Position numbers and translations under genes: made by a program
Part shown: positions 37,947 through 52,863 of the stretch, piece after piece
How the letters are laid out: every line of letters begins with the position of its first letter
How positions within the stretch are numbered: the first letter of the stretch is position 1
Notes under the pieces: model-generated
What the model saw: the letters and a program-made list of their open reading frames with translations, nothing else
What the model was told of the DNA's origin: nothing
Databases searched by the model: none
Assembly (NCBI GenBank): GCA_048886685.1
Contig: JBHLKM010000018.1
Coordinates: forward strand, 1-64,000
Reading direction: 5' to 3'
Origin: Candidatus Hodarchaeota archaeon
Lineage (GTDB): Archaea > Asgardarchaeota > Lokiarchaeia > Sigyniarchaeales > SOKP01
Length of the DNA: 64,000 nt

Positions 37947-38675
37947 TTAACCTAATAAGAATATAGAAATAATTAGTGTTAATGTAAACGCAAAAACCAT
38001 CTGAAGTATATTTTTAACTATAGATTCTTTAGAAATGACTCCTAAAAAGACCCCGAGTAAAATAATACAGATTAGAATTATACTAAATGAAATAATAAAA
38101 GTAGAAAAATTAGCTATTGGTGCATAAAAGAACGGAAATAATGGTACAAGGCCTCCTAAAAATGGTGATAAGCCATTTACAAACGCTACAATAATACTTG
38201 CAAATCTTTCAGCTTTTTCTTGGATGTTTTTAGTTCTTTTTTTCTTTTTTTTCTGATTATTATTTGTATTAATCTCAATACTGTTTGCTTTAATATTTAT
38301 GTTATTCCCTATTTTAGTTAACATTGCTTTTTCAATTTCTTTTCTACTTGCTTCTTCATCAATTTGATCTTCTTTTTCTTCAGTAATTATCATTGCTCTT
38401 TTTAATTCTTCTTTTATTTTTTTTTGTTCTGCTTTTTCTGAAAGATAGGATCCTGTTATCCCTGATATAAACATAGATATAGATGATCCTACTCCCGTTA
38501 GAATAACAAGATGGCTATCGACTGAGATCTGTCCTTCCTTAAGTATTAGTGCAAAGAATCCCAAGAGGATACCCAAAACTGTTAACATCCCATCATAAAA
38601 ATTATTCACAAAATAACGGCGAGCAATTGCCCACAAATTTGTTATTTTTGAATATACTCTGATTTTTTCGAGCAT
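37947..38675 (-). CDS. VIT1/CCC1-like (TIGR00267-type) membrane protein, copy 1
   Basis: ARRYFVNNFYDG, SMFISG..GSYLSEKAE, charged loop, NGLSPFLGGLVPLFPF. Confidence 0.8.
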   Translation of the reverse strand: MLEKIRVYSKITNLWAIARRYFVNNFYDGMLTVLGILLGFFALILKEGQISVDSHLVILTGVGSSISMFISGITGSYLSEKAEQKKIKEELKRAMIITEEKEDQIDEEASRKEIEKAMLTKIGNNINIKANSIEINTNNNQKKKKKRTKNIQEKAERFASIIVAFVNGLSPFLGGLVPLFPFFYAPIANFSTFIISFSIILICIILLGVFLGVISKESIVKNILQMVFAFTLTLIISIFLLG

Positions 38676-38740
38676 TCTTATTAATCTAATTTTACTTTAG
38701 TTTGGATTAAAAATCTGATTTATTAACACACCCTATAATT

Positions 38741-39409
38741 TTAGATACCTAACAATATTGATATAAGAAGAGTAACAATCCCAGCAGTAACTAAATGTAT
38801 GGCATATCTTACACGTCCCCCACCTGAAATCTTTCCTAAAAAGTTACCTAAATAAATAAGCAGTATAGCAAGTACAATATAAGAAAAGATAAAATGTATG
38901 AGAGACAATTTTACGCCAAAGAAAAATGGAATTAAAGGTAAAGAGGATCCTAACACTGGAGCACCTCCGTCAACTAGGGAAGCAACTATAGTTGCGAAAT
39001 CCTCAGCTTTTTCTAGTAAAGTCTTGTCTTTTTTATTTTTCATATTATTTTTTAAATCGTGTTCCAATATATCGCTATTTTCATCTTCTTTTTCCTCGAT
39101 CATTGCCATATCTTTTTTCATGTCATCAACTTTCTTCTTTCTTTCAGCTTCTTCAGAAAGAAAAGCACCCCATAGACCACTTATACCAATAGCTAATGCT
39201 GTAGCGAAACCAGTAACAGTAACGGTTTGAGGGGTGAATTGAGTTGCATTTTTACTCAGAAAAATAATGAAAATACCACTCACGATTCCAGCGCAAGTTA
39301 AAGCGCCATCAAAACAGTTATTGAAAAATTTACGTCGAGCAATTATACCCAAATCGGACATTTTTGAATATTCTTTCCAACTTTTTAACGTTTCACGAAA
39401 TTTTACCAA
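38741..39409 (-). CDS. VIT1/CCC1-like (TIGR00267-type) membrane protein, copy 2
   Basis: ARRKFFNNCFDG, ISGLWGAFLSEEAER, DGGAPVLGSSLPLIPF. Confidence 0.8.
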   Translation of the reverse strand: MVKFRETLKSWKEYSKMSDLGIIARRKFFNNCFDGALTCAGIVSGIFIIFLSKNATQFTPQTVTVTGFATALAIGISGLWGAFLSEEAERKKKVDDMKKDMAMIEEKEDENSDILEHDLKNNMKNKKDKTLLEKAEDFATIVASLVDGGAPVLGSSLPLIPFFFGVKLSLIHFIFSYIVLAILLIYLGNFLGKISGGGRVRYAIHLVTAGIVTLLISILLGI

Positions 39410-39589
39410 TTCTATTCCTCAAAAATCGTTGTTAAACTAAAAATATAGTCTCTTATTCCCAAATTATTCAAGTTGTTTTTAAATACTTATTTAATAATAT
39501 ATTTTATCTTTATTATATTTTTATTGGGAGTGATCTATGTATATTGGATAATTTTGGTATTATAGAAAAAAAAAGTTAAAAAAAATATT

Positions 39590-40375
39590 TTAGTTTCCCT
39601 TAAATTTACCTTCACGCTTTCCGAAAAATGCAGCAACTCCTTCTCTTAAATCTTCCGTTTGAAGGGTTAACATTAATTGATCCATATCCATATGCATTAT
39701 TGCTTGATCTAAGGCACCACAAATGTGATTAATAGTTTTTTTAATCATTTGAGCAGGGATTGGGGGCATCACAGCATATTCTTTACCGATCTCAATAGCT
39801 CGCTCTAAGAGATTCTCCTTTGGAACTATTTCACTTATAAAACCCCACTTTAAAAGTGTTTGAGCATCATTATTTTTGCCTAATATTGTCATTTCTTTTG
39901 CAAATGTAGGACCAATTAGATGAACAACAATAGGAAGTATAGTCCAGCTTAAACTCATTCCTAATCGGCTCTCCGGAAATCCTGCCATACAATTTTCTTC
40001 TCCAATACGAAAATCAAGTGCTGAAGCTATACAACAACCTCCTCCAAATGCACCTCCATTAATGGCAGCGATTGTAATTTGATCCATCATGTATAGCTTA
40101 CGAGTCATTCTCGGCCCATTTTGCATTGCTCTTTGTCTTCCCAGTAATGTAGTTGGACCTTGTTGTTCTCTCAAATCTCTTCCACCACTAAAATGTTTAC
40201 CCGCTCCTGTAAAAATCACAACACGCGTTTCTGTGTCTGATTGAAATTCTTCTGTTAAATATTCAATCTCTGTCATTAAAGCAGTACTTAATGTGTTGAG
40301 TTGTTCTGGTCGATTAAATGTAACAATAGCGATGTAATCGTCGCGTTTTTCTACTATTAAATTTTTATACTCCAT
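39590..40375 (-). CDS. Enoyl-CoA hydratase/isomerase family protein
   Basis: FNRPEQLNTL, FSGGRDL, IAAINGGAFGGG, DFRI, PESRLG, EGVAAFFGKREGKF. Confidence 0.92.
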   Translation of the reverse strand: MEYKNLIVEKRDDYIAIVTFNRPEQLNTLSTALMTEIEYLTEEFQSDTETRVVIFTGAGKHFSGGRDLREQQGPTTLLGRQRAMQNGPRMTRKLYMMDQITIAAINGGAFGGGCCIASALDFRIGEENCMAGFPESRLGMSLSWTILPIVVHLIGPTFAKEMTILGKNNDAQTLLKWGFISEIVPKENLLERAIEIGKEYAVMPPIPAQMIKKTINHICGALDQAIMHMDMDQLMLTLQTEDLREGVAAFFGKREGKFKGN

Positions 40376-40577
40376 ACATACTCACTTTAAAATAAACTGT
40401 CAACTTCATATAAAATGTAATTTTAGATCTAAAAATCCATAATCATTGAAAAACTAATGAGAATTTTCCAAATAAAACAATATAAACTCTCCCTAATTTA
40501 TATTCTACAAATACTAAATTTTTAATAACCTAATTATTAATATTAATATCAGAACAAAATATTTTAAGGGAATTCTT

Positions 40578-41216
40578 ATGAATAAGATTAAAGAAGAAAT
40601 TATTTCAATGTTAATTGAACATTCAAGAATTATATATTCTGTTATTTCGGATATGGGTGTTTACTATTCAACTTGGGCAGAAGATTACGAGGCTAATAAG
40701 GAAACCTTAGAAAAGAAAAAAAGTAAAATGCAACTCCGTGAAGAAGATGCCGATGCTATTAAAATTCAATTGATACAGAATTATTCTGAGGCAGGCGCGC
40801 AAGGTTTAGGAGATTATGTTGCTCTTATTCTCCGGATGGATAATGTAATAAACTATCCGTTGGAATTTGTTGATATGCTTCCAAAAATCAAGTTAGACGG
40901 TGGAGGAGATGATGAAATAAAGAAAAGATATGAAAAATTGATTAATAAAACAATTAATATGGCTAATGTCTTAAAATCTACAATAAAAAGTCTAAGAGAT
41001 AAACCTGAAATGGTTTTGAAAAATACCACTACTATCCATGAGATTGAAAATGAAGTTGATACAATATATCGCCAATTTTTAGAATATCTTTATTCCAATG
41101 ATCAATTAAATATGAGGAAACTTCTTAGAATAAGAGATAGCATAGTTTTAATGGAACAGCTTTGCGATAGAATCCATGATATTGCTGATCAAATAAGAAT
41201 TCTTCTCTATCAATAA
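40578..41216 (+). CDS. DUF47 / PhoU-like helical protein
   Basis: Two repeats E.xAD (EEDADAIK; ENEVDTIY) and MEQLCDRIHDIAD. Confidence 0.8.
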   Translation: MNKIKEEIISMLIEHSRIIYSVISDMGVYYSTWAEDYEANKETLEKKKSKMQLREEDADAIKIQLIQNYSEAGAQGLGDYVALILRMDNVINYPLEFVDMLPKIKLDGGGDDEIKKRYEKLINKTINMANVLKSTIKSLRDKPEMVLKNTTTIHEIENEVDTIYRQFLEYLYSNDQLNMRKLLRIRDSIVLMEQLCDRIHDIADQIRILLYQ

Positions 41217-41363: not shown

Positions 41364-41726
41364 ATGAAAGGTAAACAGAAATTTTACTTATTACTTGGAA
41401 TATTTCAAGTGGTATTGATTTTCTTAGTAATTTTCACATCAAATGGAATTGTAACTTTTGTTAGTGCTCAGGGTACTACCTTTGATTATTATGATTCAAC
41501 AACAACAGTTGCTTTAGCGATAGCTGTAGCATTATCCGTAAGTTTTTCAGTGCTCGGAAGCGCTTGGGCTATGAAAACAGTAGGAACTGCTGCTATAAGT
41601 GCACTTTCAGAAAGAGAAGAAGCGTTCTTTAAAGCATTTCTTGTGGTTGCCCTATGCGAAGCACTAGCAGTCTATGGACTAATTGTAGGAATTTTACTTT
41701 GGACAAAAATCCCTACGCCCGTATGA
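41364..41726 (+). CDS. atpK: A/V-type ATPase subunit K (c, proteolipid) with N-terminal signal-like segment
   Basis: Single hairpin with GTAAISALSER...LCEALAVYGL carrying the ion-binding Glu; the ATG at 41364 is preferred over the TTG at 41310. Confidence 0.9.
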   Translation: MKGKQKFYLLLGIFQVVLIFLVIFTSNGIVTFVSAQGTTFDYYDSTTTVALAIAVALSVSFSVLGSAWAMKTVGTAAISALSEREEAFFKAFLVVALCEALAVYGLIVGILLWTKIPTPV

Positions 41727-41780: not shown

Positions 41781-42830
41781 ACGAGTGTTATTGTTGATAG
41801 CTATGCGTTTACTCTAATCAAAATTGGTTTTCTAAAACAACTAATAATGGATGAAATAACTCTAAAAAAGTTAGAAGATATAACCAATATTGAGCAACTA
41901 ATCGAATATATTGATAGGTTTTACCCAGGCTTGACCTTTAATACATACACTATTGAAGAAATTGAGAAGGCATTATTTCATACTTATATTAAATTAATTG
42001 GAAGAATAATAATGAATTCTCCAAGAACTATGCGTATATTTCTTAGAAATTATCTTATGAAGTATGAAATAATGAATATCAAAAGAATTATTTTAGGTAC
42101 AATTCTTGGCATGAGTTTAAACGATAAATCAAAATTAGTCAATAAACAGGTAGAAAAATACTTAAACAACACAGATTTTATTAATGAGCTTCTAGAAATT
42201 ACATCTTTAGATCAAATTCAATTATATATGAGGCATACCAAATATAACAAAGCCATAAGAGAAGGAATTCTTTACTTTCGAAATACTAAAGAAATTTTTG
42301 TCTTGGAAGCTTTTTTAGATAAACTCTATTATGAAACTATGGAAAACGAAATAAAATTTCTAAATCCTAAAGAAAAAGTCATGATTTCTTTCTATGTGAA
42401 GTATAAATCTGAGATATATAACTTGAATATAATTTATAGAGGTATTAAGAATAATATTGACAGGAATCTACTTTCACAGTTCCTTGTTAACAATTATATG
42501 TTCTTAGATCAAAGCTCTCTAAATGATCTACTAAAGCTAAATAATGTTAATGATTTTATTACACTTCTATCTGAATTTTTGATTATAAAAAATGAAATAA
42601 GAACTAATCTACTACGATCTCCGCTTAAAGGAAAACACTTGATTTGGGAAATTGAAAAACTATATTTTAATTACTTTTTTAAGAAATTTCAACTTCAAAT
42701 AGACGATATAGAATATCAATCAATTTTCAAGATTATGGAGTTATTAATTAGAAAAGATAATGAAATTAAAATTCACGTATTACCTAAGGTTGTAGATATT
42801 TTACATGAAAAATATAAGGTGTTAACATAA
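41781..42830 (+). CDS. atpC: A/V-type ATPase subunit C (d); probable ACG start
   Basis: KYEIMNIK, LEAFLDKLYY, EIYNLNIIYRG; the expected N-terminal helix (SYAFTLIKIGFLKQLI) lies upstream of the called ATG at 41847. Confidence 0.85.
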   Translation, partial: TSVIVDSYAFTLIKIGFLKQLIMDEITLKKLEDITNIEQLIEYIDRFYPGLTFNTYTIEEIEKALFHTYIKLIGRIIMNSPRTMRIFLRNYLMKYEIMNIKRIILGTILGMSLNDKSKLVNKQVEKYLNNTDFINELLEITSLDQIQLYMRHTKYNKAIREGILYFRNTKEIFVLEAFLDKLYYETMENEIKFLNPKEKVMISFYVKYKSEIYNLNIIYRGIKNNIDRNLLSQFLVNNYMFLDQSSLNDLLKLNNVNDFITLLSEFLIIKNEIRTNLLRSPLKGKHLIWEIEKLYFNYFFKKFQLQIDDIEYQSIFKIMELLIRKDNEIKIHVLPKVVDILHEKYKVLT

Positions 42831-43141
42831 TGGATCTTTTTGAAAATTTGAAAGATATCGAAAGGGTTTATGAAGAACTTGTGAACAATGCTAAGAATTT
42901 AAACTTAAAAGAAATTGAGAAATTCAGAGAAAATGAACAAATAGCATTTGAGGACTTTATTAACGAAAAGAATAAGCTTGTGAATGAGGTATTAGGAAAA
43001 CTAGCAAAAGATGTTAAAATAAAAATTGATAGTTTTAAAAATAAATTAGATACGGCAATTAAAAAGATTGAGTTACAATTTCAAAAAAGAATTGGAAATC
43101 TTCAGAAATTGATCATCGAAGAGGTGGGATTAGACTTTTAA
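42830..43141 (+). CDS. A/V-type ATPase peripheral stalk subunit H (G)
   Basis: 103-aa charged coiled coil (LKDIERVYEELVNNAK...) at the expected operon position. Confidence 0.7.
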   Translation: MDLFENLKDIERVYEELVNNAKNLNLKEIEKFRENEQIAFEDFINEKNKLVNEVLGKLAKDVKIKIDSFKNKLDTAIKKIELQFQKRIGNLQKLIIEEVGLDF

Positions 43142-43467
43142 TGTTTGATAAAGAAGTTTATGTAGTGGGGGATGAAGATATTGTTTTAATGTTCGGACTC
43201 TTAGGAATAGAGGGCACAATAATCGAACATCGGGATGAGTTCCTAAAATTGTTTAACGATTTGGTAACTCAACCAGAAATAGGAATGATTATTATAACAT
43301 TAAAATTGTCTGATGAATTAATTGATTTTCTGTTAGATTTTAAATTAAATAACAAGAAACCGTTTATATTTATTCTTCCTGACATTTTCCAACCTAATAT
43401 CGAAAGAATGGATGTCCTATTAAATAAAATCTCCAATGCAATTAGCGAGATAGAGCTATTAAAATGA
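43141..43467 (+). CDS. atpF: A/V-type ATPase subunit F
   Basis: VYVVGDEDIVLMFGLLGIEG, IGMIIIT, PFIFILPD. Confidence 0.9.
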   Translation: MFDKEVYVVGDEDIVLMFGLLGIEGTIIEHRDEFLKLFNDLVTQPEIGMIIITLKLSDELIDFLLDFKLNNKKPFIFILPDIFQPNIERMDVLLNKISNAISEIELLK

Positions 43468-43493
43468 GTTGATTAATAATTTCTGAAGAAAAA

Positions 43494-44207
43494 GTGTTTA
43501 AAAAGCAATTAGGAAATTTGGGACGTTATTTAATCGAGAGAGCCCAAATTGAGATAAAAGAATTAAACCAAAAAACTCTTTTTCAAAAAGCTGAAATAAA
43601 AAAAAGGTTTATAGAAAGGAGTGAAGAGAGAACAATTAAATTGAAGCAACATTTTAAAGAGAGCTATGATCAATTTTTAAATCAATCATTATCTTCAACT
43701 CTATTAAGTGGTAAAGAAAAATTTTTGAATATAAAAAATAATCTAATTAAAGAATTAAAGCTGTCGTTATTTAAGCTTATAAAGCAAAGAATTGATAATA
43801 ATTATAAATTCTACATTGATTATCTTTTGAATTCAATAAAAAATGTCACGAAAACTATAGATAATCCCCAGGAAGTAGAATTAATATTTAATAATAAAGA
43901 TTATGACTATTTTATTAAGAATTTTGATAAAATTGTAAATCTTTTTAAGAATCCAATAGAAATTAATAAAGATAAAAGAGATTTTATTGGTGGATTTAAA
44001 ATTTCTCTAGTTGGTGGAGTAATATCTTACGATTACACCATTGATAATTTAATTAATAGAAGTTCGTCTTATCTACAGATGGAAATTTCCAAAATCATTG
44101 ATGACTCTGAAATTAAAGAGATTGAAATTGAATTTGAAGAATTTATAAAAAATCAAAAGAAATTAATTACGGAATACTTAACTAAGTATGATCAAATCCA
44201 AATCTAA
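43494..44207 (+). CDS. atpE: A/V-type ATPase subunit E
   Basis: N-terminal coiled coil, NNKDY, FIGGFKI, YDYTIDNLI. Confidence 0.85.
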   Translation: MFKKQLGNLGRYLIERAQIEIKELNQKTLFQKAEIKKRFIERSEERTIKLKQHFKESYDQFLNQSLSSTLLSGKEKFLNIKNNLIKELKLSLFKLIKQRIDNNYKFYIDYLLNSIKNVTKTIDNPQEVELIFNNKDYDYFIKNFDKIVNLFKNPIEINKDKRDFIGGFKISLVGGVISYDYTIDNLINRSSSYLQMEISKIIDDSEIKEIEIEFEEFIKNQKKLITEYLTKYDQIQI

Positions 44208-46026
44208 TAAAAATTCTCAGCATGGATATATTTCTGCAATCATTGGTTCTTTAATTCATGTAAAAGGACTAGAGAATCAAATAAAACTACATGATTTGAT
44301 TAAAGTTAGAAATATGTTAGGAGAAGTTATCCAAATTTATTCAGATCATATTGTTGCTCAATGTTTTGAAAATACAACAAATTTACGAATTGATGAAGAA
44401 GTTATAAATTTAAATGAACCCTTATCAATGGAACTAGCACCAGGATTGTTGGGAAATATTTTTGATGGAATACAAAGACCACTTCAAAAAGCTTTTGAAA
44501 TACTCAAAGGTGGGCAATTAGAAAGAGGATTAGAAATACCATCACTGTCGAGAACAAAAAAATGGCATTTTATTCCACTAGAGAGAATCAAAGCTAATGT
44601 TATAGGAGGAGATGTGATTGGAATTGTCCAAGAAACTGAGATAATAGAACACAAAATAATGGTTCCACCATATACTAGTGGTATTTTAACCTATCTTGTA
44701 GGTGAGGGAGATTATACAATAGAACAAGAAATATACAGATTAAAGAATGGGCAAGAAGAAAAATCTTTTTCAATGATGCAAAAATGGCCCATAACAACCC
44801 CTAGACCATTTAAAGAAAGGTTATTACCTGATGAGCCGTTGATTACGGGGATACGTGTTATAGATTTATTGTTTCCAATAACCAAAGGGGGGACTTTTGG
44901 TGTTCCAGGAGGATTTGGAACCGGTAAAACAGTTATTCAACAATCATTAGCCAAATGGTGTGATGCTGATATAATTTTATACATAGGTTGCGGAGAACGA
45001 GGAAACGAGATAGCTGACGTATTAAAGCAATTTACTGAGCTAGTTGACCCCAAAAGTAAACGTCCTTTACTAGAGCGAATAATATTAATAGCAAATACCT
45101 CAAATATGCCCGTTTCGGCACGTGAAGCAAGTATTTTTTCTGGAGTAACTATTGCTGAATATTATAGAGATATGGGATATGATATTGCTGTTCTTGCTGA
45201 CAGTACTTCAAGATGGGCAGAATCTTTAAGAGAAATATCTGGATTATTGGAGGAAATGCCTGCTGAAGAGGGATATCCTGCTTATTTACCATCCAAACTC
45301 TCTGGATTTTATGAAAGGGCTGGTATTGTCAAACTTATTGGTAATAAAGTAAACGGAAAAGAAAGAATAGGATCATTAACAATCATAGGTTCTGTTAGTC
45401 CTCCCGCAGGGGACTTTAGTGAACCTGTAACAGCAACCACTAAAAATTTTGTACAAGGGATATGGGCTTTGGATGCCGGATTAGCCTATTCTAAGCATTA
45501 CCCCGCTATAAACTGGTTGGATTCATATTCAAACTATCCTGATTATATCTCTGAATGGTGGTATGAGAGAGATATAAACTGGTCGGAAATTGATATTGAT
45601 TGGTTTGACTGTCGTAATCAAGTTAATGAAATTTTATCTCAAGATAATGAATTAAAATATATAACTCAACTAATCGGAGAAGAAAATTTACCTGATGATC
45701 AACAATTAACTTTATTTATTGCCAAATTAATTAAAAATGGATTTTTAATTCAAAATGCCTATGATGATATCGATAGCTTTACAGATATAGCGAAACTCTT
45801 AGGTATGATAAAAATTATTCTATTATTATTTAAAGAAAGTAAAGAATTATTGAAACAAGGATTTTTAATCGAAGATATAAAATCACTTTTAGTTATTAAT
45901 GATATTTTAAGAATAAATAGAACAATAACTAATGATGATTTCAATAAAATTAAAGATATTAAAAAAAAGCTACTCAGTGAGATAGAATCTTTAAAATTAA
46001 CCAGAGGAGTATTCAAAAAGCTATGA
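44188..46026 (+). CDS. atpA: A/V-type ATPase catalytic subunit A
   Basis: [19 protein letters not shown]-loop [60 protein letters not shown]. Confidence 0.96.
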   Translation: MIKSKSNKNSQHGYISAIIGSLIHVKGLENQIKLHDLIKVRNMLGEVIQIYSDHIVAQCFENTTNLRIDEEVINLNEPLSMELAPGLLGNIFDGIQRPLQKAFEILKGGQLERGLEIPSLSRTKKWHFIPLERIKANVIGGDVIGIVQETEIIEHKIMVPPYTSGILTYLVGEGDYTIEQEIYRLKNGQEEKSFSMMQKWPITTPRPFKERLLPDEPLITGIRVIDLLFPITKGGTFGVPGGFGTGKTVIQQSLAKWCDADIILYIGCGERGNEIADVLKQFTELVDPKSKRPLLERIILIANTSNMPVSAREASIFSGVTIAEYYRDMGYDIAVLADSTSRWAESLREISGLLEEMPAEEGYPAYLPSKLSGFYERAGIVKLIGNKVNGKERIGSLTIIGSVSPPAGDFSEPVTATTKNFVQGIWALDAGLAYSKHYPAINWLDSYSNYPDYISEWWYERDINWSEIDIDWFDCRNQVNEILSQDNELKYITQLIGEENLPDDQQLTLFIAKLIKNGFLIQNAYDDIDSFTDIAKLLGMIKIILLLFKESKELLKQGFLIEDIKSLLVINDILRINRTITNDDFNKIKDIKKKLLSEIESLKLTRGVFKKL

Positions 46027-47414
46027 GTGTTATTTATAGAAAAATCCAACAAATAATTGGACCCCTAGTATTTCTTAAAAATGAGCATCATGCTCAATTT
46101 GGGGAGATTGTTTTAATTAGAACAGATGATGATAATATTCGTATGGGACAAATTGTAAAAATGAGTGAAGAACTTATAGTAGTGGAAGTATTTGAGGATA
46201 CTACTGGATTATCTACAGAAAATGCTGAGATAATTTTCACAGAAGACACGTTTAAAGTAAAGATTTCAAAAGATATGCTTGGTCAAACATTTAATTCTTT
46301 AGGAAAACCAATTGATATTAAAACAAAAGCTTTATTAGATTCAGATATTTTATCAGATGTTCAAAGAGATATAAACGGAGTTCCTATTAATCCATTTGCA
46401 AGGGAATATCCTGTAGATATAATTCAAACGGGAATATCAGTAATTGATGGCCTATTCACATTAATTAGGGGTCAAAAACTCCCAATATTCAGTGGACAAG
46501 GATTAACTCACAACAAATTAGCTGCTCAAATTGCTACACAAGCAAAAGTTTTAGCAGAAGAACCATTTGTCATAATCTTTTGTGGAATAGGGATAATTCA
46601 AGACGAAGCAATTTATTTTTTAAATCGTTTTCAAGAGAGTGGATCCATTCAAAACATAATTTCTTTTATAAATTTTGCAGATGATCCGATAATTGAAAGA
46701 TTAATTATCCCAAGAGTTGCTTTAACAACTGCAGAATATTTTGCCTTCGAAAAAGATATGCATGTTCTTGTTATTTTAATTGATATGACTAACTATGCTG
46801 AAGCTTTAAGAGAACTTAGTTCAGCAAAAGAAGAGATCCCTAGTAGAAAGGGTTATCCCGGATATATTTATTCCGATTTTGCTTCAATTTATGAGAGGAC
46901 GGGGAAAATTAAAGGAAAAAAAGGCACAATAACTCAAATCCCGATTCTTACTATGCCATCAGATGACATATCACACCCTATTAGTGACACCACGGGCTAT
47001 ATAACTGAGGGACAACTAGTACTTAGCCGCAGTTTGCACAAAAAAGGAATTTATCCTCCGTTTGAAGTATTAGCCTCCATTTCACGATTAATGAAAGATG
47101 CAATAGGTAAAGATAAAACAAGAGAAGATCATGCTGATGTTAGCTCACAATTATTGTCTGCATATTCAAATTATCTTGAAGTTAAAGATCTTATTTCAAT
47201 CGTAGGAGAAGATGGTTTAAGTTTTGAACAGAAGAATTTTTTAAAATTTGGGGTAGATTTTGAACAGAAATTTTTAAAACAAGAAATAAATGAAAATCGA
47301 GATTTTGAAACTACACTTAATTTGGCATGGGAAGTGCTTTCAAATTTAACTATAGATCAATTGTTTAGAGTACATTCAAGATTTTTAGATAAATATTATA
47401 AGATCCGGGTGTAG
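46023..47414 (+). CDS. atpB: A/V-type ATPase subunit B
   Basis: GVPINPFAREYP, IQTGISVIDG, RGQKLPIFSG, DMTNYAEALRE, GYPGY, TGYITEGQ, SRLMK (Arg finger), TREDH. Confidence 0.96.
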   Translation: MSVIYRKIQQIIGPLVFLKNEHHAQFGEIVLIRTDDDNIRMGQIVKMSEELIVVEVFEDTTGLSTENAEIIFTEDTFKVKISKDMLGQTFNSLGKPIDIKTKALLDSDILSDVQRDINGVPINPFAREYPVDIIQTGISVIDGLFTLIRGQKLPIFSGQGLTHNKLAAQIATQAKVLAEEPFVIIFCGIGIIQDEAIYFLNRFQESGSIQNIISFINFADDPIIERLIIPRVALTTAEYFAFEKDMHVLVILIDMTNYAEALRELSSAKEEIPSRKGYPGYIYSDFASIYERTGKIKGKKGTITQIPILTMPSDDISHPISDTTGYITEGQLVLSRSLHKKGIYPPFEVLASISRLMKDAIGKDKTREDHADVSSQLLSAYSNYLEVKDLISIVGEDGLSFEQKNFLKFGVDFEQKFLKQEINENRDFETTLNLAWEVLSNLTIDQLFRVHSRFLDKYYKIRV

Positions 47415-47417
47415 GTT

Positions 47418-48065
47418 ATCAGTTTTCGTGATATAAAACCAACAAAATCAAATTTGATAGGATTACAAAAGAGATTAGTTTTTGCTGTTAGAGGAGAAAC
47501 TTTTTTAGAATATAGACGAGAACAGTTAGTCTTTCAAATTAAACGATTAGGGAAAGAATATTTGGAAATACGAAAGAATTTTATTGATTTATTTAAACAA
47601 TCACTTATAAAATTAAATCAAACTTATGAAGAAATGGGTAAAAATGGAGTTGTTCTGATTAGTAAATTAAGCAGAATACAATATAAACCCATGATAGATA
47701 TTCAATATCAAAAGAAAGTAGGAATAGTTGTTCCTAAAATTAATTATGAATTTTTTCAAGAGGAAAAATTACCTGCTTATACCTTTGAAGACACAAGTCA
47801 TTTTCTCGATGATTTAATTATTTTATTGAAAGAATTTTTTAAGGAAATGATAAAATTTACTGAAATTGAAGATTTACTATTGAAACATGCTGTTAGCTTT
47901 AAAAAAGTAAATCGCCGGATTAATGGACTAAAAAATATGATTATTCCAAAAATGAAAACGGATATAAAACAAATTAAAGAAATTTTAGAAGAAATTGAGA
48001 GAGAAAACTATGTAAGACTAAAAAAAACAAAAGATTTAATTATTAGCCAAGGAAAAACCACTTGA
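47418..48065 (+). CDS. atpD: A/V-type ATPase subunit D; probable ATC start
   Basis: The conserved N-terminal IKPTKSNLIGLQKRL..A.RG...L begins upstream of the called TTG (47454); C-terminal RRINGLKNMIIP...LEEIERENYVRLKK. Confidence 0.9.
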   Translation: MSFRDIKPTKSNLIGLQKRLVFAVRGETFLEYRREQLVFQIKRLGKEYLEIRKNFIDLFKQSLIKLNQTYEEMGKNGVVLISKLSRIQYKPMIDIQYQKKVGIVVPKINYEFFQEEKLPAYTFEDTSHFLDDLIILLKEFFKEMIKFTEIEDLLLKHAVSFKKVNRRINGLKNMIIPKMKTDIKQIKEILEEIERENYVRLKKTKDLIISQGKTT

Positions 48066-48077
48066 GTATGATGAAAA

Positions 48078-50552
48078 ATGGTAAAAAAAAGTGAATTTAG
48101 TTTAATAAGAGCAGAAATAAACCATAATTATAAAGATCAATTACTAATTGAACTCTCAGATCTAAATATAGTTCATGTAAAACCAAGAGCAGAAAAAAAC
48201 AAAATTAAGAAGGAATTAGAAGAAAAAGATCCTCTTAAGGAAAAAATTAAAGATATAAGGAAAAATTTAAACAACCTGTATAAAAAACTTGAAATAAGTG
48301 AATATGATGTTTTAAATTTAAAAGTTGCTGAGGATGATAGAATAGAATTTATTGCAAGAGATTTACCAGAATTAATAGACCATATCGAAGAAGAAATCGA
48401 TTTTTATACAAATAGAATGGTTGAGTTAAATAGATATATTACTAAAGGAAAAATCGAATTAGAAAATTTAATGACAATTAAAAATTGTTATAATTATGCA
48501 AAAAAATTAAATCTAAATGTAGAAAAAATAGATAGTTTGGAAATTTTTAAATTTCGAATTTTCACAACTTTTAGCAAAAACTTAACCAATTTAAAAAATT
48601 TATTTGAACATTCAGAATTTCCTAATTTTTATGAAACATTTATGATTTCTGATGATCGAATTGGTTTCTATATTATCTATCCAAAAGATAAGGAGAATGA
48701 GTTTAACGCAAGGATTCGATTAATACATTCTGAAGAAGTTCCAATACTTAAAAGATATTTGACAAAAGAAGGAATAAATTTCCTAAGAATTAATAAGGAA
48801 ATAAATTTTATTGAAAATTTGGTTTCAAGATATAAAAAAGAACAAACTCGAATAATAAAAGATAATATGTTAAGATTTGCGGCGATTAATGAAGTTGTGC
48901 AAAATATTGAGGAATATAATTGGGCGGAACATCAATTTGAAAAAACAACATCAAATCGTCTAATCTTTAAATTCTTTATTCCCTCACAGAAAAAAGAGGA
49001 GATTCTTCAACATTTATTTGCAATCTTTAAAGATAATATTACCATCGAATCAAATGATATCTCAAAAAAAAAACCCATTAAAGAAGCTATTACTGCAAAA
49101 AAAAGAAAAACTATGAAATACAAAAAAGAACCAATACTAAAAGAAGAGTATCTAGAACGAAGTGAAAATGATGGGATAGATAATGGAGTAGACTTAAGAG
49201 AATCTACTCCTACAATAATGAAAAATTTCTTTTTGATTCGCCCATTCGAAACAATTACCAGATTATATGGCACACCAACTTATTCTGAAATTGATCCTAC
49301 TCCGATTATTGCTTTTACTTTTCCAATATTATTCGGTATGATGTTTGGTGATATTGGTCATGGGCTAATTTTAATAATCGCAGGATTTATAGGAGGAATA
49401 GTATTTAGGAAAAGGAAAGGAGACACTGCCAATTTCTCATGGATAATTTTTTTCTGTGGATGGGCTGCATTTTTCATCGGATTTTTATACGGTGAATTTT
49501 TAGGAAAACATGAACTAGAAATTTTTGGCAACATAATTTGGCATCTCGAACCAATTAATTTATTAAGTATTCTTCCTCCCCCATATATTTTAAGAGCTAC
49601 AGCAATTATAGGAGGGGGCATAACTATACTGGGTATAATAGCACTTACTTTAATTCATTCCAGATTAAAAAGAATAGCAAATTGGATTATTGGTATTGGA
49701 TTAACATTTTGTTTGCTGTCATTGATCCTATTAATAATTTCACCAACGTTAGATATTACGTTATATAATCCTTTGCAAAATATAATGAATGTATTTAAAT
49801 TTGCAATTTATATTGGTGTATTTCATATTAATTTGGGATGGTTCATTCAATTTTTGAATTATTGGAAACAAAAAAGAAAATATCTGGGATTTAGTGATTC
49901 TTTAATGAAAATTCTATTGTTGACTGGAGGAACTATTCTAATTTTTGGATTTGGATTCGATATTTATGGATGGTTATCCTCTCCTTACCCAATTTTACTA
50001 GTCTTAATCCCTGGGGTGCTTTTATTGGGATTGAAACCATTTGGAAAACTTCTTGGGATTTCTTATCTAAAAGAAGAATCTTTTAGTGGATTATTAGGTG
50101 AAGGTTCGATTGAAGCCTTTGATACTGTTTTATCAGTAGTGAGTAATGTAGCTTCATATATTAGATTATTAGCTTTAGCATTAGCACATATAGCATTGTT
50201 ATATTCGATTAATGCTATGAGTACCTTGATTGAAGGTGACAATTTTGGAATTGAAATAGTTAATTTAATTGGTCAGATCTTTGGGAATATAGTCGTAATC
50301 TTAATTGAAGGTATACTAGTTTTCATCAACACCTTACGTCTTCATTTTTATGAATTCTTTTTTAAATTCTACCAGGGCTCAGGAATTGAATATTTTCCAT
50401 TTTACCTTGATAATAATTACTCTATGCTTAAGTTTAGGCCAGAGACTGAGAAAGACATCATTTCAGAGGAAATTGAGAGAGAGATTGATACAGAATTTGT
50501 AAAAAAAGAAATAGATAAAGCTATTAATTATCTTTCAAAAAAATTTGAATAA
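48078..50552 (+). CDS. atpI: A/V-type ATPase subunit I (a)
   Basis: PTIMKN..IRPFE..LYGTPTYSEIDPT, FGMMFGDIGHG, SNVASYIRLLALALAH (essential Arg), LRLHFYEFFFKFY.G.G. Confidence 0.95.
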   Translation: MVKKSEFSLIRAEINHNYKDQLLIELSDLNIVHVKPRAEKNKIKKELEEKDPLKEKIKDIRKNLNNLYKKLEISEYDVLNLKVAEDDRIEFIARDLPELIDHIEEEIDFYTNRMVELNRYITKGKIELENLMTIKNCYNYAKKLNLNVEKIDSLEIFKFRIFTTFSKNLTNLKNLFEHSEFPNFYETFMISDDRIGFYIIYPKDKENEFNARIRLIHSEEVPILKRYLTKEGINFLRINKEINFIENLVSRYKKEQTRIIKDNMLRFAAINEVVQNIEEYNWAEHQFEKTTSNRLIFKFFIPSQKKEEILQHLFAIFKDNITIESNDISKKKPIKEAITAKKRKTMKYKKEPILKEEYLERSENDGIDNGVDLRESTPTIMKNFFLIRPFETITRLYGTPTYSEIDPTPIIAFTFPILFGMMFGDIGHGLILIIAGFIGGIVFRKRKGDTANFSWIIFFCGWAAFFIGFLYGEFLGKHELEIFGNIIWHLEPINLLSILPPPYILRATAIIGGGITILGIIALTLIHSRLKRIANWIIGIGLTFCLLSLILLIISPTLDITLYNPLQNIMNVFKFAIYIGVFHINLGWFIQFLNYWKQKRKYLGFSDSLMKILLLTGGTILIFGFGFDIYGWLSSPYPILLVLIPGVLLLGLKPFGKLLGISYLKEESFSGLLGEGSIEAFDTVLSVVSNVASYIRLLALALAHIALLYSINAMSTLIEGDNFGIEIVNLIGQIFGNIVVILIEGILVFINTLRLHFYEFFFKFYQGSGIEYFPFYLDNNYSMLKFRPETEKDIISEEIEREIDTEFVKKEIDKAINYLSKKFE

Positions 50553-50598: not shown

Positions 50599-51036
50599 GT
50601 GCCGGAAACCAAAGAGAAACTATTAAATCGAAAAGTACTTATTATTCGGTTATTAATTTTGATCAGTTATTTGCTTATACTGCTTTTTTTTTTCTATTTT
50701 TTAACCAAATTTGGGGCTAATCCTTTCATTGTTCTTATCTTGCTTCTGTTCACGTTTTTGATAACTATCGGTCCATTTTTTAGACGAGGTAAGAGATCTC
50801 TTTACTCTAGGATGTTTCCCAATAGAAAAAGAAAAAGCTCCCTTGAAGGGGGACAGAAAGAAAAGGATCGTAGAATTAAGAGAAAATTTGAACAAGCTGA
50901 ACCTAAAATCTATAAAAAAGTCAATCTGGAAATTAATTATCGTAAACCAATTGTACTTAAATGCGGAAATTGCGGAAATACAATACCCAATTTTGTAAAA
51001 AAATGTCCATTTTGTAATAAACAAGTATCCTACTAA
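50599..51036 (+). CDS. Small two-TM protein with basic linker and C-terminal zinc ribbon
   Basis: Two TM helices, K/R-rich linker, CGNC...CPFC. Confidence 0.75.
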   Translation: MPETKEKLLNRKVLIIRLLILISYLLILLFFFYFLTKFGANPFIVLILLLFTFLITIGPFFRRGKRSLYSRMFPNRKRKSSLEGGQKEKDRRIKRKFEQAEPKIYKKVNLEINYRKPIVLKCGNCGNTIPNFVKKCPFCNKQVSY

Positions 51037-51060: not shown

Positions 51061-52863
51061 ATGAAAGAATTGAGTCAAGGATATATTTCTGCTATTATAG
51101 GTTCCTTAATAAAAGTAAAAGGATTAGAAAATGAGGTAAGACTTTATGATATGGTTAAAATCTCAAAACATAATATTCTGGGAGAAGTTATTCAAATACA
51201 ATCAGATCACATTGTGGCTCAGTGTTTCGAAAATGTCATTAAAGTAAAATTATATGAGAAAGTTGAGAATCTAAATGAACCACTTTCGATGGAATTGGCT
51301 CCGGGTCTAATTGCGGGTGTTTTTGATGGAATTCAAAGGCCTTTGGAGATGATTTTTAAAAATTTAGAATCTGGAGGCTTAGAAAGAGGGATAAAATATC
51401 CTTCTTTATCAAGAAAAACAAAATGGCATTTTACACCCCTAAGGAAATTAGGTGATGAAGTTAAAGGAGGAGATGTGATTGGATCAGTTAAAGAAACAAA
51501 AGATATCGAGCATAAAATAATGGTTCCTCCTAATTCTACTGGGATAATTTCATTTATCGCTGATGAAGGTGATTATACAATAGTAGAAGAAATTTATAAA
51601 CTAAAAGATAAAAATAAAGAAAATTCCTTCCCAATGTTACAAAAATGGCCCATCACTCAAAATAGACCTTTTACAAAGAAAGAAAATCCGAATAAACCAT
51701 TAATAACAGGAATACGTGTTATAGATTTACTTTTTCCAATCGTAAAGGGTGGCACAACTGCTATTCCTGGAGGATTTGGAACTGGCAAGACCGTTATTCA
51801 ACAATCATTAGCTAAGTGGTGTAATGCTGATTTGGTAGTATTTATTGGATGTGGAGAGCCCGGAAATGAAATTGCAAATATCTTGAAGCAATTTTCAGAA
51901 ACTGAAGACCCTAAAAGTGGTACTCCTTTATTAGATCATATAATACTTATAGCTAATACCTCCAATATGCCTGTATCAGCACGAGAAGCCAGTTTATTTT
52001 CTGGGGTAACTATTGCGGAGTATTATCGAGATATGGGATACGATGTTGTTGTGTTAGCAGATAGTATATCGAGATGGGCAGAATCTCTCAGAGAAATCTC
52101 AGGCTTATTGGAAGAAATGCCAGCTGAGGAGGGATATCCTGCATATCTACCTTCAAAACTTTCAAACTTTTATGAGAGAGCTGGCTTGGTTAAAACTTTA
52201 GGCTTAGATCACATAGGTGCAGAGAAAGAAGGGTCTTTAACGATTATTGGAACTATATCACCACCAGCAGGCGATTTCAGTGAACCAGTTACCTCAACAA
52301 CAAAAAGATTGGTACAAGTTTTTTTAGCTTTAGACCCAAAATTAGCCTATTTAAAGCACTATCCCGCTATAGATTGGCTTAATTCTTATTCGAATTACCC
52401 TTCTTATATTGCAGATTGGTGGTATGACAGAGATATTGATTGGCCTGAAATTAATATTGATTGGGACGAATGTCGAAATCAAGTGAATGACATTTTATCA
52501 CAGGAACAGGATTTGAAATATTTGATTCAATTAATAGGTGAAAAGAACTTGCCAGAAGATAAACAACTAGTTCTCTTTATTACAAAATTAATTAAGAATA
52601 GCTTTTTAATCCAAAGTGCTTTTGATGAAATTGATAGCTTCACCGATGTTGAAAAATTATTAGGTATAATTAAATTAATTCTCTTTATTTACAATAAAGG
52701 GAAAGATCTTGTTAATCAAGGAATATTACTTGAAGACCTATTAGATTCTGAACTTATTAATAAAATAATGAGAATCAGTCAAACAGTTCCGAACAATAAC
52801 TTCAATCAAATTGAGAGAATAAAGAATGAACTTATAAGGAAATTTAGACTAGTAAGTATCTAG
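51061..52863 (+). CDS. atpA: Second A/V-type ATPase subunit A paralog (A') with GER-to-GEP substitution
   Basis: Colinear with 44188..46026 and P-loop GGFGTGKT intact, but GCGEPGNE and DSISRW replace GCGERGNE and DSTSRW; GAGGA SD upstream. Confidence 0.92.

What the first reader, a model, noticed from the sequence alone, without database searches (positions are those of the whole stretch)
51061..52863. Second catalytic A subunit with the phosphate-binding Arg replaced by Pro: a possible pseudo-catalytic subunit
Seen: a full-length, uninterrupted paralog of atpA with its own SD, intact P-loop and catalytic Glu, but GCGEPGNE (CCC at 51859-61) instead of GCGERGNE (CGA at 44998-45000). The codons differ at two bases, so a single-base error is unlikely. 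Known: this Arg (E. coli F1 beta R182; E. hirae V1 A R262) contacts the gamma-phosphate and is needed for catalysis. Only one B gene is present. Inference: A' binds nucleotide but hydrolyses poorly and could enter the A3B3 ring as a brake or regulator, or build an asymmetric motor, replaying the ancient catalytic-to-non-catalytic A/B split. Strongest candidate for an undescribed system in this window.
Basis: partly seen in the sequence, partly recalled or inferred. Interest (0 to 1): 0.82.

Follow-up and report, generated by a model that had tools for sequence, protein, structure and literature searches.

The report
Proline-locked spare motor subunit in Lokiarchaea
One family of Asgard archaea keeps a second, well-preserved copy of the motor subunit of its only rotary ATPase, in which the arginine that holds phosphate is always replaced by proline; it probably fits into the same motor and throttles ATP burning, a kind of built-in brake not described before and not yet tested.

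Summary
Observation confirmed. A' (51061-52863) is an intact, 67%-identical paralog of subunit A, with Pro267 in place of the phosphate-binding Arg. The genome has two A genes, one B and no F-type enzyme. A' is real and under selection. Pro is invariant in 54/54 orthologs from seven genera of one Lokiarchaeia family and uses all four Pro codons. dN/dS is 0.10-0.28, and Arg267 is the only one of 137 universal A positions that is completely replaced. All other catalytic residues and the rotor-facing loops are kept. A' has further specific changes, three of six at the modelled catalytic interface with B, and five of the six persist in a genus where A and A' were otherwise homogenised. In scans of GTDB genomes and metagenomes this A type appeared only on Loki-type contigs. 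A' is dispensable: it is cleanly missing in several genomes. Best reading (0.5): an ADP-binding, phosphate-blind subunit that takes an A position and brakes an ATPase working mainly as an ATP-driven proton pump, since redox pumps were not found. Rivals: slow isoform, assembly placeholder, gear-shift. No paper found; expression and activity are untested. The scan noted this before in other genomes.

The parts
51061..52863 (+). A': second A/V-ATPase subunit A paralog (600 aa) with Arg->Pro at the phosphate-binding site; last gene of the operon
51859..51861 (+). Pro267 codon CCC, equivalent to E. hirae A R262 and E. coli beta R182; Pro in 54/54 orthologs, all four codons used
51877..51879 (+). 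Asn273 (Asp in 58/58 A; N/H in 52/54 A'); arm helix, at the modelled B interface
51994..51996 (+). Leu312 (54/54 A' versus Ile in 58/58 A)
52309..52311 (+). Leu417 (L/V/I in all A' versus Phe in 58/58 A)
52351..52353 (+). Leu431 (52/53 A' versus S/A/E in A); at the modelled B interface next to adenine-stacking Tyr434
52543..52545 (+). Lys495 (K/R in 45/54 A' versus Glu in 57/58 A); charge reversal at the first position of the DELSEED-equivalent loop (E. hirae D480)
   Evidence: loop assignment from PMC3879392
51045..51049 (+). SD-like GAGGA before A' (not conserved family-wide)
50599..51036 (+). Conserved operon gene: N-terminal hydrophobic (probably two-TM) segment plus C-terminal zinc ribbon; also present in genomes lacking A'
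44188..46026 (+). Canonical catalytic subunit A (Arg271, CGA at 44998-45000)
46023..47414 (+). Single subunit B with intact arginine finger R355
41364..41726 (+). Proteolipid c/K: one hairpin with one Glu after an N-terminal hydrophobic extension; no Na+-motif residues seen, so probably H+
   Evidence: ion type is inference
41847..44207 (+). Subunits C, H/G, F, E
   Evidence: F assigned by position and size; H/G by position and a weak Pfam hit
47454..50552 (+). Subunits D (rotor) and I/a (stator)
   Evidence: assigned from sequence, size and operon position; no family search run on these two

Best explanation
A' is a selectively maintained pseudo-catalytic subunit. It assembles with B in an A position of the cell's only A1AO complex (A2A'B3 or similar) and throttles ATP hydrolysis. 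SHOWN: one residue of the catalytic set is replaced, always by Pro. The P-loop, catalytic Glu, Walker-B Asp, second phosphate Arg, adenine pocket, B-interface and rotor-facing loops are conserved. A few A'-specific residues concentrate at the catalytic interface and in the rotor-contact loop. Redox-driven pumps of the complex I/Ech, Mrp, Rnf/Nqr, heme-copper and decarboxylase types were not found in this genome. INFERRED from the E. coli beta-R182 mutants: the A' site still binds MgADP but cannot hold phosphate or form the transition state. INFERRED from the Pi-release/MgADP-inhibition link in F1: such a site is prone to the ADP-trapped state and yields no torque, so a ring containing A' stalls or slows in the hydrolysis direction, more so when ADP is high. 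The result is a genetically encoded brake that limits ATP spent on proton pumping in an energy-poor fermenter. How the A'/A ratio is controlled is unknown.
For: Pro in 54/54 orthologs with all four codons. 52/52 A-subunit metagenome hits to a pattern allowing any codon without G in second position are Pro. dN/dS is 0.10-0.28 for A' against 0.08-0.15 for A. Of 137 universal sites only R267 is fully replaced. E. coli betaR182Q has ATPase 0.020 against 42 for wild type, no ATP synthesis, no Pi binding, and MgADP binding unaffected (PMC3268026). Early Pi release induces MgADP inhibition (PMC3988807). Sleeve loop 350-363 has conservation 0.99 and loop 400-411 has 0.96 in A', equal to A; interface residues are more conserved than the rest of A' (0.85 vs 0.76, p=1.6e-4). 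The A'-B model scored 0.70 against a best control of 0.00, a mark reached by 58 of 80 solved complexes and 2 of 110 mismatched pairs (counts hold only roughly, since my own alignment was used); runs agree in at least 94% of contacts and partner pLDDT is at least 86. This is a textbook pair and may pass from memory of solved A-B structures. Three of six diagnostic residues fall in the 61-residue interface (Fisher p=0.02, post hoc). There is only one B and one set of other subunits. PF00361, PF03116, PF00146, PF00115 and PF03977 were not found in the genome, and PF00146 was found in only 4 of 88 family genomes.
Against: There are no expression or biochemical data. A' is usually the last gene of the same operon with no room for an intergenic promoter, so a constitutive poison would be costly: at a 25% A' share, 58% of randomly assembled rings carry at least one A'. 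The catalytic Glu is 100% retained, which a fully dead site would not obviously need. F1 mutants of other essential charged residues still rotate 1000- to 10,000-fold more slowly (PMC5380711), so 'dead' may mean 'slow'. A membrane pyrophosphatase is present, so the enzyme could also run as a synthase. A' is absent from many close relatives with the same operon. [quoted passage not shown]
Confidence: 0.5

Rival explanations
1. Slow or re-tuned but active isoform: A'3B3 rings still turn over, because the co-fixed interface changes (N273, L312, L/V417, L431) partly compensate for loss of the Arg. This would give a low-rate pump or one with different nucleotide affinity.
For: All other catalytic residues are invariant, including E266. 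The replacement is specifically Pro, never another residue, and sits just before the arm helix 268-280 in the model, which suggests a required conformation. F1 catalysis is robust to loss of single charged residues (PMC5380711).
Against: No A'-specific Lys/Arg was fixed near the site; the only new basic residue, K495, is in the rotor loop. Even the conservative betaR182K change leaves 0.6% activity (PMC3268026).
Confidence: 0.16
2. Assembly placeholder or B-sequestering factor: A' binds B (or a partial ring) during assembly or storage and is later exchanged for A, or it titrates B to limit the number of complete enzymes.
For: The B-interface is conserved and modelled. The C-terminal domain and DELSEED-equivalent loop are relaxed or charge-reversed (0.73 vs 0.92). 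A' is dispensable.
Against: The rotor-facing sleeve and switch loops are as conserved as in A, although they also touch B. Relatives assemble the same operon without A' and show no obvious compensating change in the B or c motifs examined.
Confidence: 0.13
3. Gear shift: in the synthesis direction, a ring with one or two phosphate-blind sites makes two or one ATP per turn. This raises the H+/ATP ratio 1.5- or 3-fold, allows synthesis at low proton-motive force (for example from the pyrophosphatase), and blocks back-hydrolysis.
For: The H+/ATP ratio sets the minimum pmf, and all F1 studied make three ATP per turn (PMC12229609). With assumed values (50 kJ/mol, c10) the threshold falls from 155 to 104 or 52 mV. 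The site is predicted to pass ADP without catalysis (PMC3268026). The c subunit is a single hairpin, compatible with synthesis, and a membrane PPase is present.
Against: Each active 120-degree step would be locally uphill, so flux could be negligible. Mixed rings are not shown. Few sources of pmf were found in the genome.
Confidence: 0.12
4. Off-ring role: A' is a free nucleotide (ADP) sensor or scaffold with a partner other than the ATPase.
For: In genus g17 A' has moved out of the operon and is on a long branch.
Against: It stays in the operon in six genera, its ring-facing surfaces are conserved, and it has no co-conserved partner gene; the zinc-ribbon gene does not track A'.
Confidence: 0.07
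5. Decaying duplicate or assembly artefact.
For: A' has been lost repeatedly and evolves somewhat faster than A (mean identity 66% vs 72%).
Against: Frames are intact, dN/dS is far below 1, Pro is fixed with four codons, the A/A' synonymous distance is above 1 in all but one genus, and two single-contig genomes carry it.
Confidence: 0.02

Closest known systems
Catalytic subunit A of A/V-type ATPases (P. horikoshii 1VDZ/3M4Y, T. thermophilus 3A5C/7VAI, E. hirae NtpA 3VR4)
   Same: Four-domain architecture including the non-homologous region, P-loop, catalytic Glu, Walker B and adenine pocket; fold match TM 0.83-0.85 at about 40% identity.
   Different: The otherwise universal phosphate-binding Arg is Pro, there is a charge reversal in the DELSEED-equivalent loop, and it coexists with a normal A and a single B.
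Non-catalytic subunit B / F1 alpha (the ancient pseudo-enzyme partner)
   Same: A catalytically impaired paralog kept by selection within a rotary ATPase operon.
   Different: B lacks the Walker-A motif (PMC10656485) and donates the arginine finger. A' keeps Walker A and the catalytic Glu, has Asn at the position I align (from knowledge of F1) with the finger, is only about 29% identical to B over the aligned part, and arose recently within one family.
Engineered E. coli F1 betaR182Q/K mutants and hybrid F1 with one impaired beta
   Same: Same residue lost; predicted loss of Pi binding with retained MgADP binding (PMC3268026).
   Different: These are laboratory constructs in an F-type enzyme. 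A' is natural, Pro-specific and carries co-fixed interface changes. I found no test of the equivalent change in an A/V enzyme.
Hydrolysis inhibitors of rotary ATPases (epsilon, IF1, zeta, yeast V1 subunit H, intrinsic MgADP inhibition); from my own knowledge
   Same: Proposed role: preventing wasteful ATP hydrolysis.
   Different: Those are small accessory proteins or states of normal sites; none is a full-length duplicate of the catalytic subunit.
Genomes with two complete A/V-ATPase operons (e.g. Asgard family f13 in this survey)
   Same: Two A genes per genome.
   Different: There each A is followed by its own B and keeps Arg; here the second A has no B.

Membership tests
A/V-type ATPase subunit A family (homology) | Beta-barrel, non-homologous region, nucleotide-binding and V/A C-terminal domains | tested here: met
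   PF02874 (24 bits), PF16886, PF00006 and PF22919 all above their cut-offs; best folds are V1/A1 A chains
A/V-type ATPase subunit A family (homology) | Branches inside archaeal subunit A, not with B | tested here: met
   Nested among family-f1 A sequences in a tree of A subunits; 67% identical to A, about 29% to B
Catalytically competent subunit A | Walker A Lys/Thr, catalytic Glu, Walker B Asp, second phosphate Arg (beta R246 equivalent) | tested here: met
   K243, E266, D334 and R338 invariant in 54/54; position 244 is T/S
Catalytically competent subunit A | Arg following the catalytic Glu (beta R182 / R262) | tested here: not met
   Pro in 54/54
Catalytically competent subunit A | ATP hydrolysis or synthesis in an A3B3DF ring | not testable with these tools
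   Needs reconstitution
Ring-forming A-position subunit | Conserved catalytic interface with B and conserved rotor-facing loops | tested here: met
   Model score 0.70 vs control 0.00, possibly from memory of solved pairs; conservation analysis
Ring-forming A-position subunit | Second (non-catalytic) A-B interface and physical presence in the complex | not tested
   Only one interface was modelled; no proteomics
Non-catalytic subunit B | Loss of Walker A and provision of the arginine finger | tested here: not met
   Walker A is intact; position 445, which I take from knowledge of F1 to be the finger-equivalent position, is Asn in 49/54 A'; window B keeps R355
Pseudogene / relaxed duplicate | dN/dS near 1, disrupted frames, random residues at lost sites | tested here: not met
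   dN/dS 0.10-0.28; Pro only

The most novel reading that the evidence does not exclude
These Lokiarchaeia build natural mixed catalytic rings (A2A'B3, AA'2B3) in which a proline-locked, ADP-permissive but phosphate-blind site changes the number of ATP per turn. The motor would then have a genetically adjustable gear: one-way against hydrolysis and able to make ATP at lower proton-motive force. This would break the rule that rotary ATPases always couple three ATP per rotation.
Probability: 0.12. Interest if true: 0.93.

Novelty: new variant of a known kind. Interest (0 to 1): 0.72.

Why it matters
Rotary ATPases are assumed to have three equivalent catalytic subunits. A conserved natural paralog that loses exactly one catalytic residue, always to Pro, while keeping ring- and rotor-facing surfaces would be a new mode of control: inhibition, or re-gearing, by swapping in a look-alike subunit. 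It is a recent, datable example of a catalytic ATPase subunit turning pseudo-catalytic, in relatives of the eukaryote ancestor whose V-ATPase control predates eukaryotic mechanisms. It is directly testable by recombinant A/A'/B/D/F reconstitution and single-molecule rotation. It also warns that atpA used as a marker in this family has a hidden paralog with occasional homogenisation.

Tried and rejected
The promoter/terminator scan is sigma-70-type, gave no more sites than shuffles, and is uninformative for an archaeon. Independent origins elsewhere: 8 of 75 genome hits to the motif pattern were bacterial and not ATPase genes (unrelated ORFs or other frames); hits labelled Odin or Thor have Loki synteny and 28-30% GC and are not taken as a wider range. 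Second A copies in other Asgard families keep Arg and most are followed by their own B. The zinc-ribbon protein as a dedicated A' partner was rejected, because it persists without A' and A' can leave it; the Atlas gave only its own unnamed cluster. A compensating basic residue near the site was not found. Recent gene conversion was not seen in this genome (longest identical tract 20 nt). An independent origin of the g12 A' is not established, because a single A' clade was not rejected (p-AU 0.145). Literature: ten searches found no description. PMC10656485, preprint 10.64898/2026.10.01.756066 and PMC7997004 did not mention such a paralog in the passages retrieved; the last reports both an 'A-type' and a 'V-type' ATPase in a Loki MAG without residue analysis. 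The library lacks most subscription papers. The single-chain AlphaFold model was of low confidence around the active site and was used only for fold and helix position.

Full report
OBSERVATION. The window holds an A/V-type ATPase operon in the order c-C-H/G-F-E-A-B-D-I, then a zinc-ribbon membrane protein, then A'. A' (51061-52863, 600 aa) is 67% identical to A (44188-46026). It has Pro267 (CCC, 51859-51861) where A has Arg271 (CGA, 44998-45000). The genome (4.42 Mb, 100% complete) has only three genes of the alpha/beta family, A, B and A', so this is its only rotary ATPase. Public records carrying the same A' motif are titled Promethearchaeota (Lokiarchaeia), including Loki_b31 and Loki_b32.

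DISTRIBUTION. In the host genus 41 of 49 genomes with a match have two or more A matches, and in genus g22 26 of 40 do (counted). I extracted 54 second copies from seven genera of the family; all have Pro, encoded by all four Pro codons. All 58 operon A copies and 22 outgroup Asgard A sequences have Arg. A' follows the zinc-ribbon gene at the operon end in six genera. In g17 it lies elsewhere among unrelated genes. It is cleanly absent from the locus in at least nine genomes, where the zinc-ribbon gene is followed directly by the tRNA endonuclease gene, and it was not found in those searched of several basal genera. The neighbouring family has one A per genome. Two of its single-contig genomes match the cultured Lokiarchaeia in size, but that identification is my inference. 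A motif scan of 185,579 GTDB genomes gave 75 hits: 67 are A subunits of the same Loki type at about 27-36% GC, and 8 are unrelated bacterial sequences. A metagenome scan allowing any codon without G in the second position returned 80 loci before its limit; all 52 A-subunit hits were Pro and of the Loki type. Other replacements with G in the second codon position, or with different flanks, were not covered.

SELECTION. Pairwise dN/dS is 0.10-0.28 for A' (mostly 0.10-0.19) and 0.08-0.15 for A in the same genome pairs. Of 137 positions near-invariant in family A and in outgroup A, 120 are kept in at least 90% of A', and Arg267 is the only one wholly replaced. Besides Pro267, A' carries N/H273 (A: Asp), Leu312 (Ile), L/V/I417 (Phe), Leu431 (S/A/E) and K/R495 (Glu). 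In genus g12, A and A' are far more alike than elsewhere (about 81% identity; dS 0.44-0.46 against 1.1-2.9 in other genera) and group together in the tree. Yet five of the six diagnostic residues persist there, as one- or two-base differences in near-identical flanks. This fits gene conversion that spared the diagnostic sites, or a repeat duplication with convergence. A single A' clade is not rejected (p-AU 0.145), so the history is not settled. The C-terminal domain is the most relaxed part of A' (51% against 64% mean identity in A).

ANATOMY. By alignment offsets to E. hirae numbering (residues named in PMC6371843), K243 = K238, E266 = E261, P267 = R262, Y434 = F425 and Q518 = Q503. K495 corresponds to D480, the first residue of the DELSEED-equivalent loop near rotor subunit D (PMC3879392). 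The model has the normal A fold (TM 0.85 to 3VR4), with Pro267 immediately before helix 268-280, a position where Pro need not disturb the fold. A predicted A'-B dimer scored 0.70 against a best control of 0.00. That mark was reached by 58 of 80 solved complexes and 2 of 110 mismatched pairs (counts approximate here); runs agreed in at least 94% of contacts and partner pLDDT was at least 86. This is a textbook pair, so the pass shows likeness rather than binding. More useful is the interface list. It is the catalytic interface, containing the P-loop and B's finger R355, and it includes P267, N273 and L431 (3 of 6 diagnostic sites in 61 of 553 residues; Fisher p = 0.02, post hoc). It is more conserved in A' than the rest of the protein (0.85 vs 0.76), nearly as in A (0.88). 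The inward loops 350-363 and 400-411, which face the rotor in solved rings (my knowledge of F1/V1), score 0.99 and 0.96, as in A. B keeps its finger in genomes with and without A'.

MECHANISM. In E. coli F1, betaR182Q has ATPase 0.020 against 42 for wild type, no synthesis, no Pi binding and no transition state, while MgADP binding is unaffected; even R182K gives 0.25 (PMC3268026). By homology A' should be ADP-permissive and phosphate-blind (inferred). In F1, loss of Pi before ADP produces the MgADP-inhibited stall (PMC3988807). From memory, one incompetent site nearly stops steady-state F1 turnover (Amano et al. 1996; I saw only its title, in the reference list). A ring containing A' should therefore stall or crawl when hydrolysing. 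The genome has a membrane pyrophosphatase, but I found no complex I/Ech/Mrp, Rnf/Nqr, heme-copper oxidase or decarboxylase pump families, and PF00146 occurs in 4 of 88 family genomes. The enzyme therefore probably often burns ATP to pump protons, which makes a brake useful. Against this, A' is apparently co-transcribed, so random assembly would disable many rings (58% at a 25% share) unless its level is low or regulated, and I could not test expression. Invariant Pro, rather than drift, and a retained Glu suggest a specific locked conformation, not mere loss. This keeps alive a slow-isoform reading (PMC5380711), a placeholder reading, and a gear-shift reading in which fewer ATP per turn lower the pmf threshold (PMC12229609; illustrative numbers).

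COMPARISON AND NOVELTY. A' belongs to the subunit A family by homology, fails the test for a competent catalytic A, and is not a B. It works, most likely, like a hydrolysis inhibitor, but unlike the known small inhibitors it is a full-length look-alike of the catalytic subunit. Ten literature searches found no description (among them), with the caveat of library coverage. Earlier notes of this scan reported the same paralog in other genomes; they are AI notes and were not counted as support.

VERDICT. A real, lineage-restricted, strongly conserved pseudo-catalytic paralog; a new variant of a known kind; interest 0.72. Function is inferred: brake 0.5, slow isoform 0.16, placeholder 0.13, gear shift 0.12, off-ring role 0.07, decay 0.02.

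Noticed in passing
window 50599-51036: Family-wide operon gene after subunit I with a hydrophobic N-terminus and C-terminal zinc ribbon (doubled in most g22 genomes); unnamed Promethearchaeota cluster in the Atlas. It may be a small accessory membrane subunit of the complex.
   Followed up: partly
L115:11124-12977 (-), genome G193: The only A found in this 97%-complete genome has the catalytic Glu replaced by Ile (codon ATA) and an altered P-loop (Ala-Val for Gly-Phe-type residues), and the operon lacks the zinc-ribbon gene. It is a possible second, independent inactivation or a decaying ATPase.
   Followed up: partly
L081 and L082 (G174, G173): A and A' are homogenised along the gene (dS about 0.45) while five diagnostic residues stay different.
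   Followed up: yes
L102, L104 (G189, G190): A' has moved out of the operon and is on a long branch. Two A' rows keep Arg at position 349, where all other family A and A' have Leu; I did not check which rows.
   Followed up: partly
window 45500-45620 and 52400-52480: Both A and A' carry a family-specific Trp-rich insertion of about 6 residues at the start of the C-terminal domain relative to P. horikoshii A.
   Followed up: no
L041 and L231 (G005, single contig): The operon is split: A-B-D lie about 0.86 Mb away from I-zinc ribbon-A', so A' travelled with the stator gene.
   Followed up: partly
L123 (G020), L110 (G252): Extra A/V-ATPase gene sets with Arg-type A and their own B occur in two family genomes (second operons or bin contamination).
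   Followed up: no
window 37947-41216: Two VIT1-like membrane genes (my label from sequence, not searched) and a PhoU-like DUF47 gene sit just upstream of the operon in many relatives; a phosphate-regulation link to a phosphate-blind subunit is untested.
   Followed up: no
window 41364-41726: The proteolipid has an N-terminal hydrophobic extension before a single hairpin in the whole family (about 120 aa).
   Followed up: no
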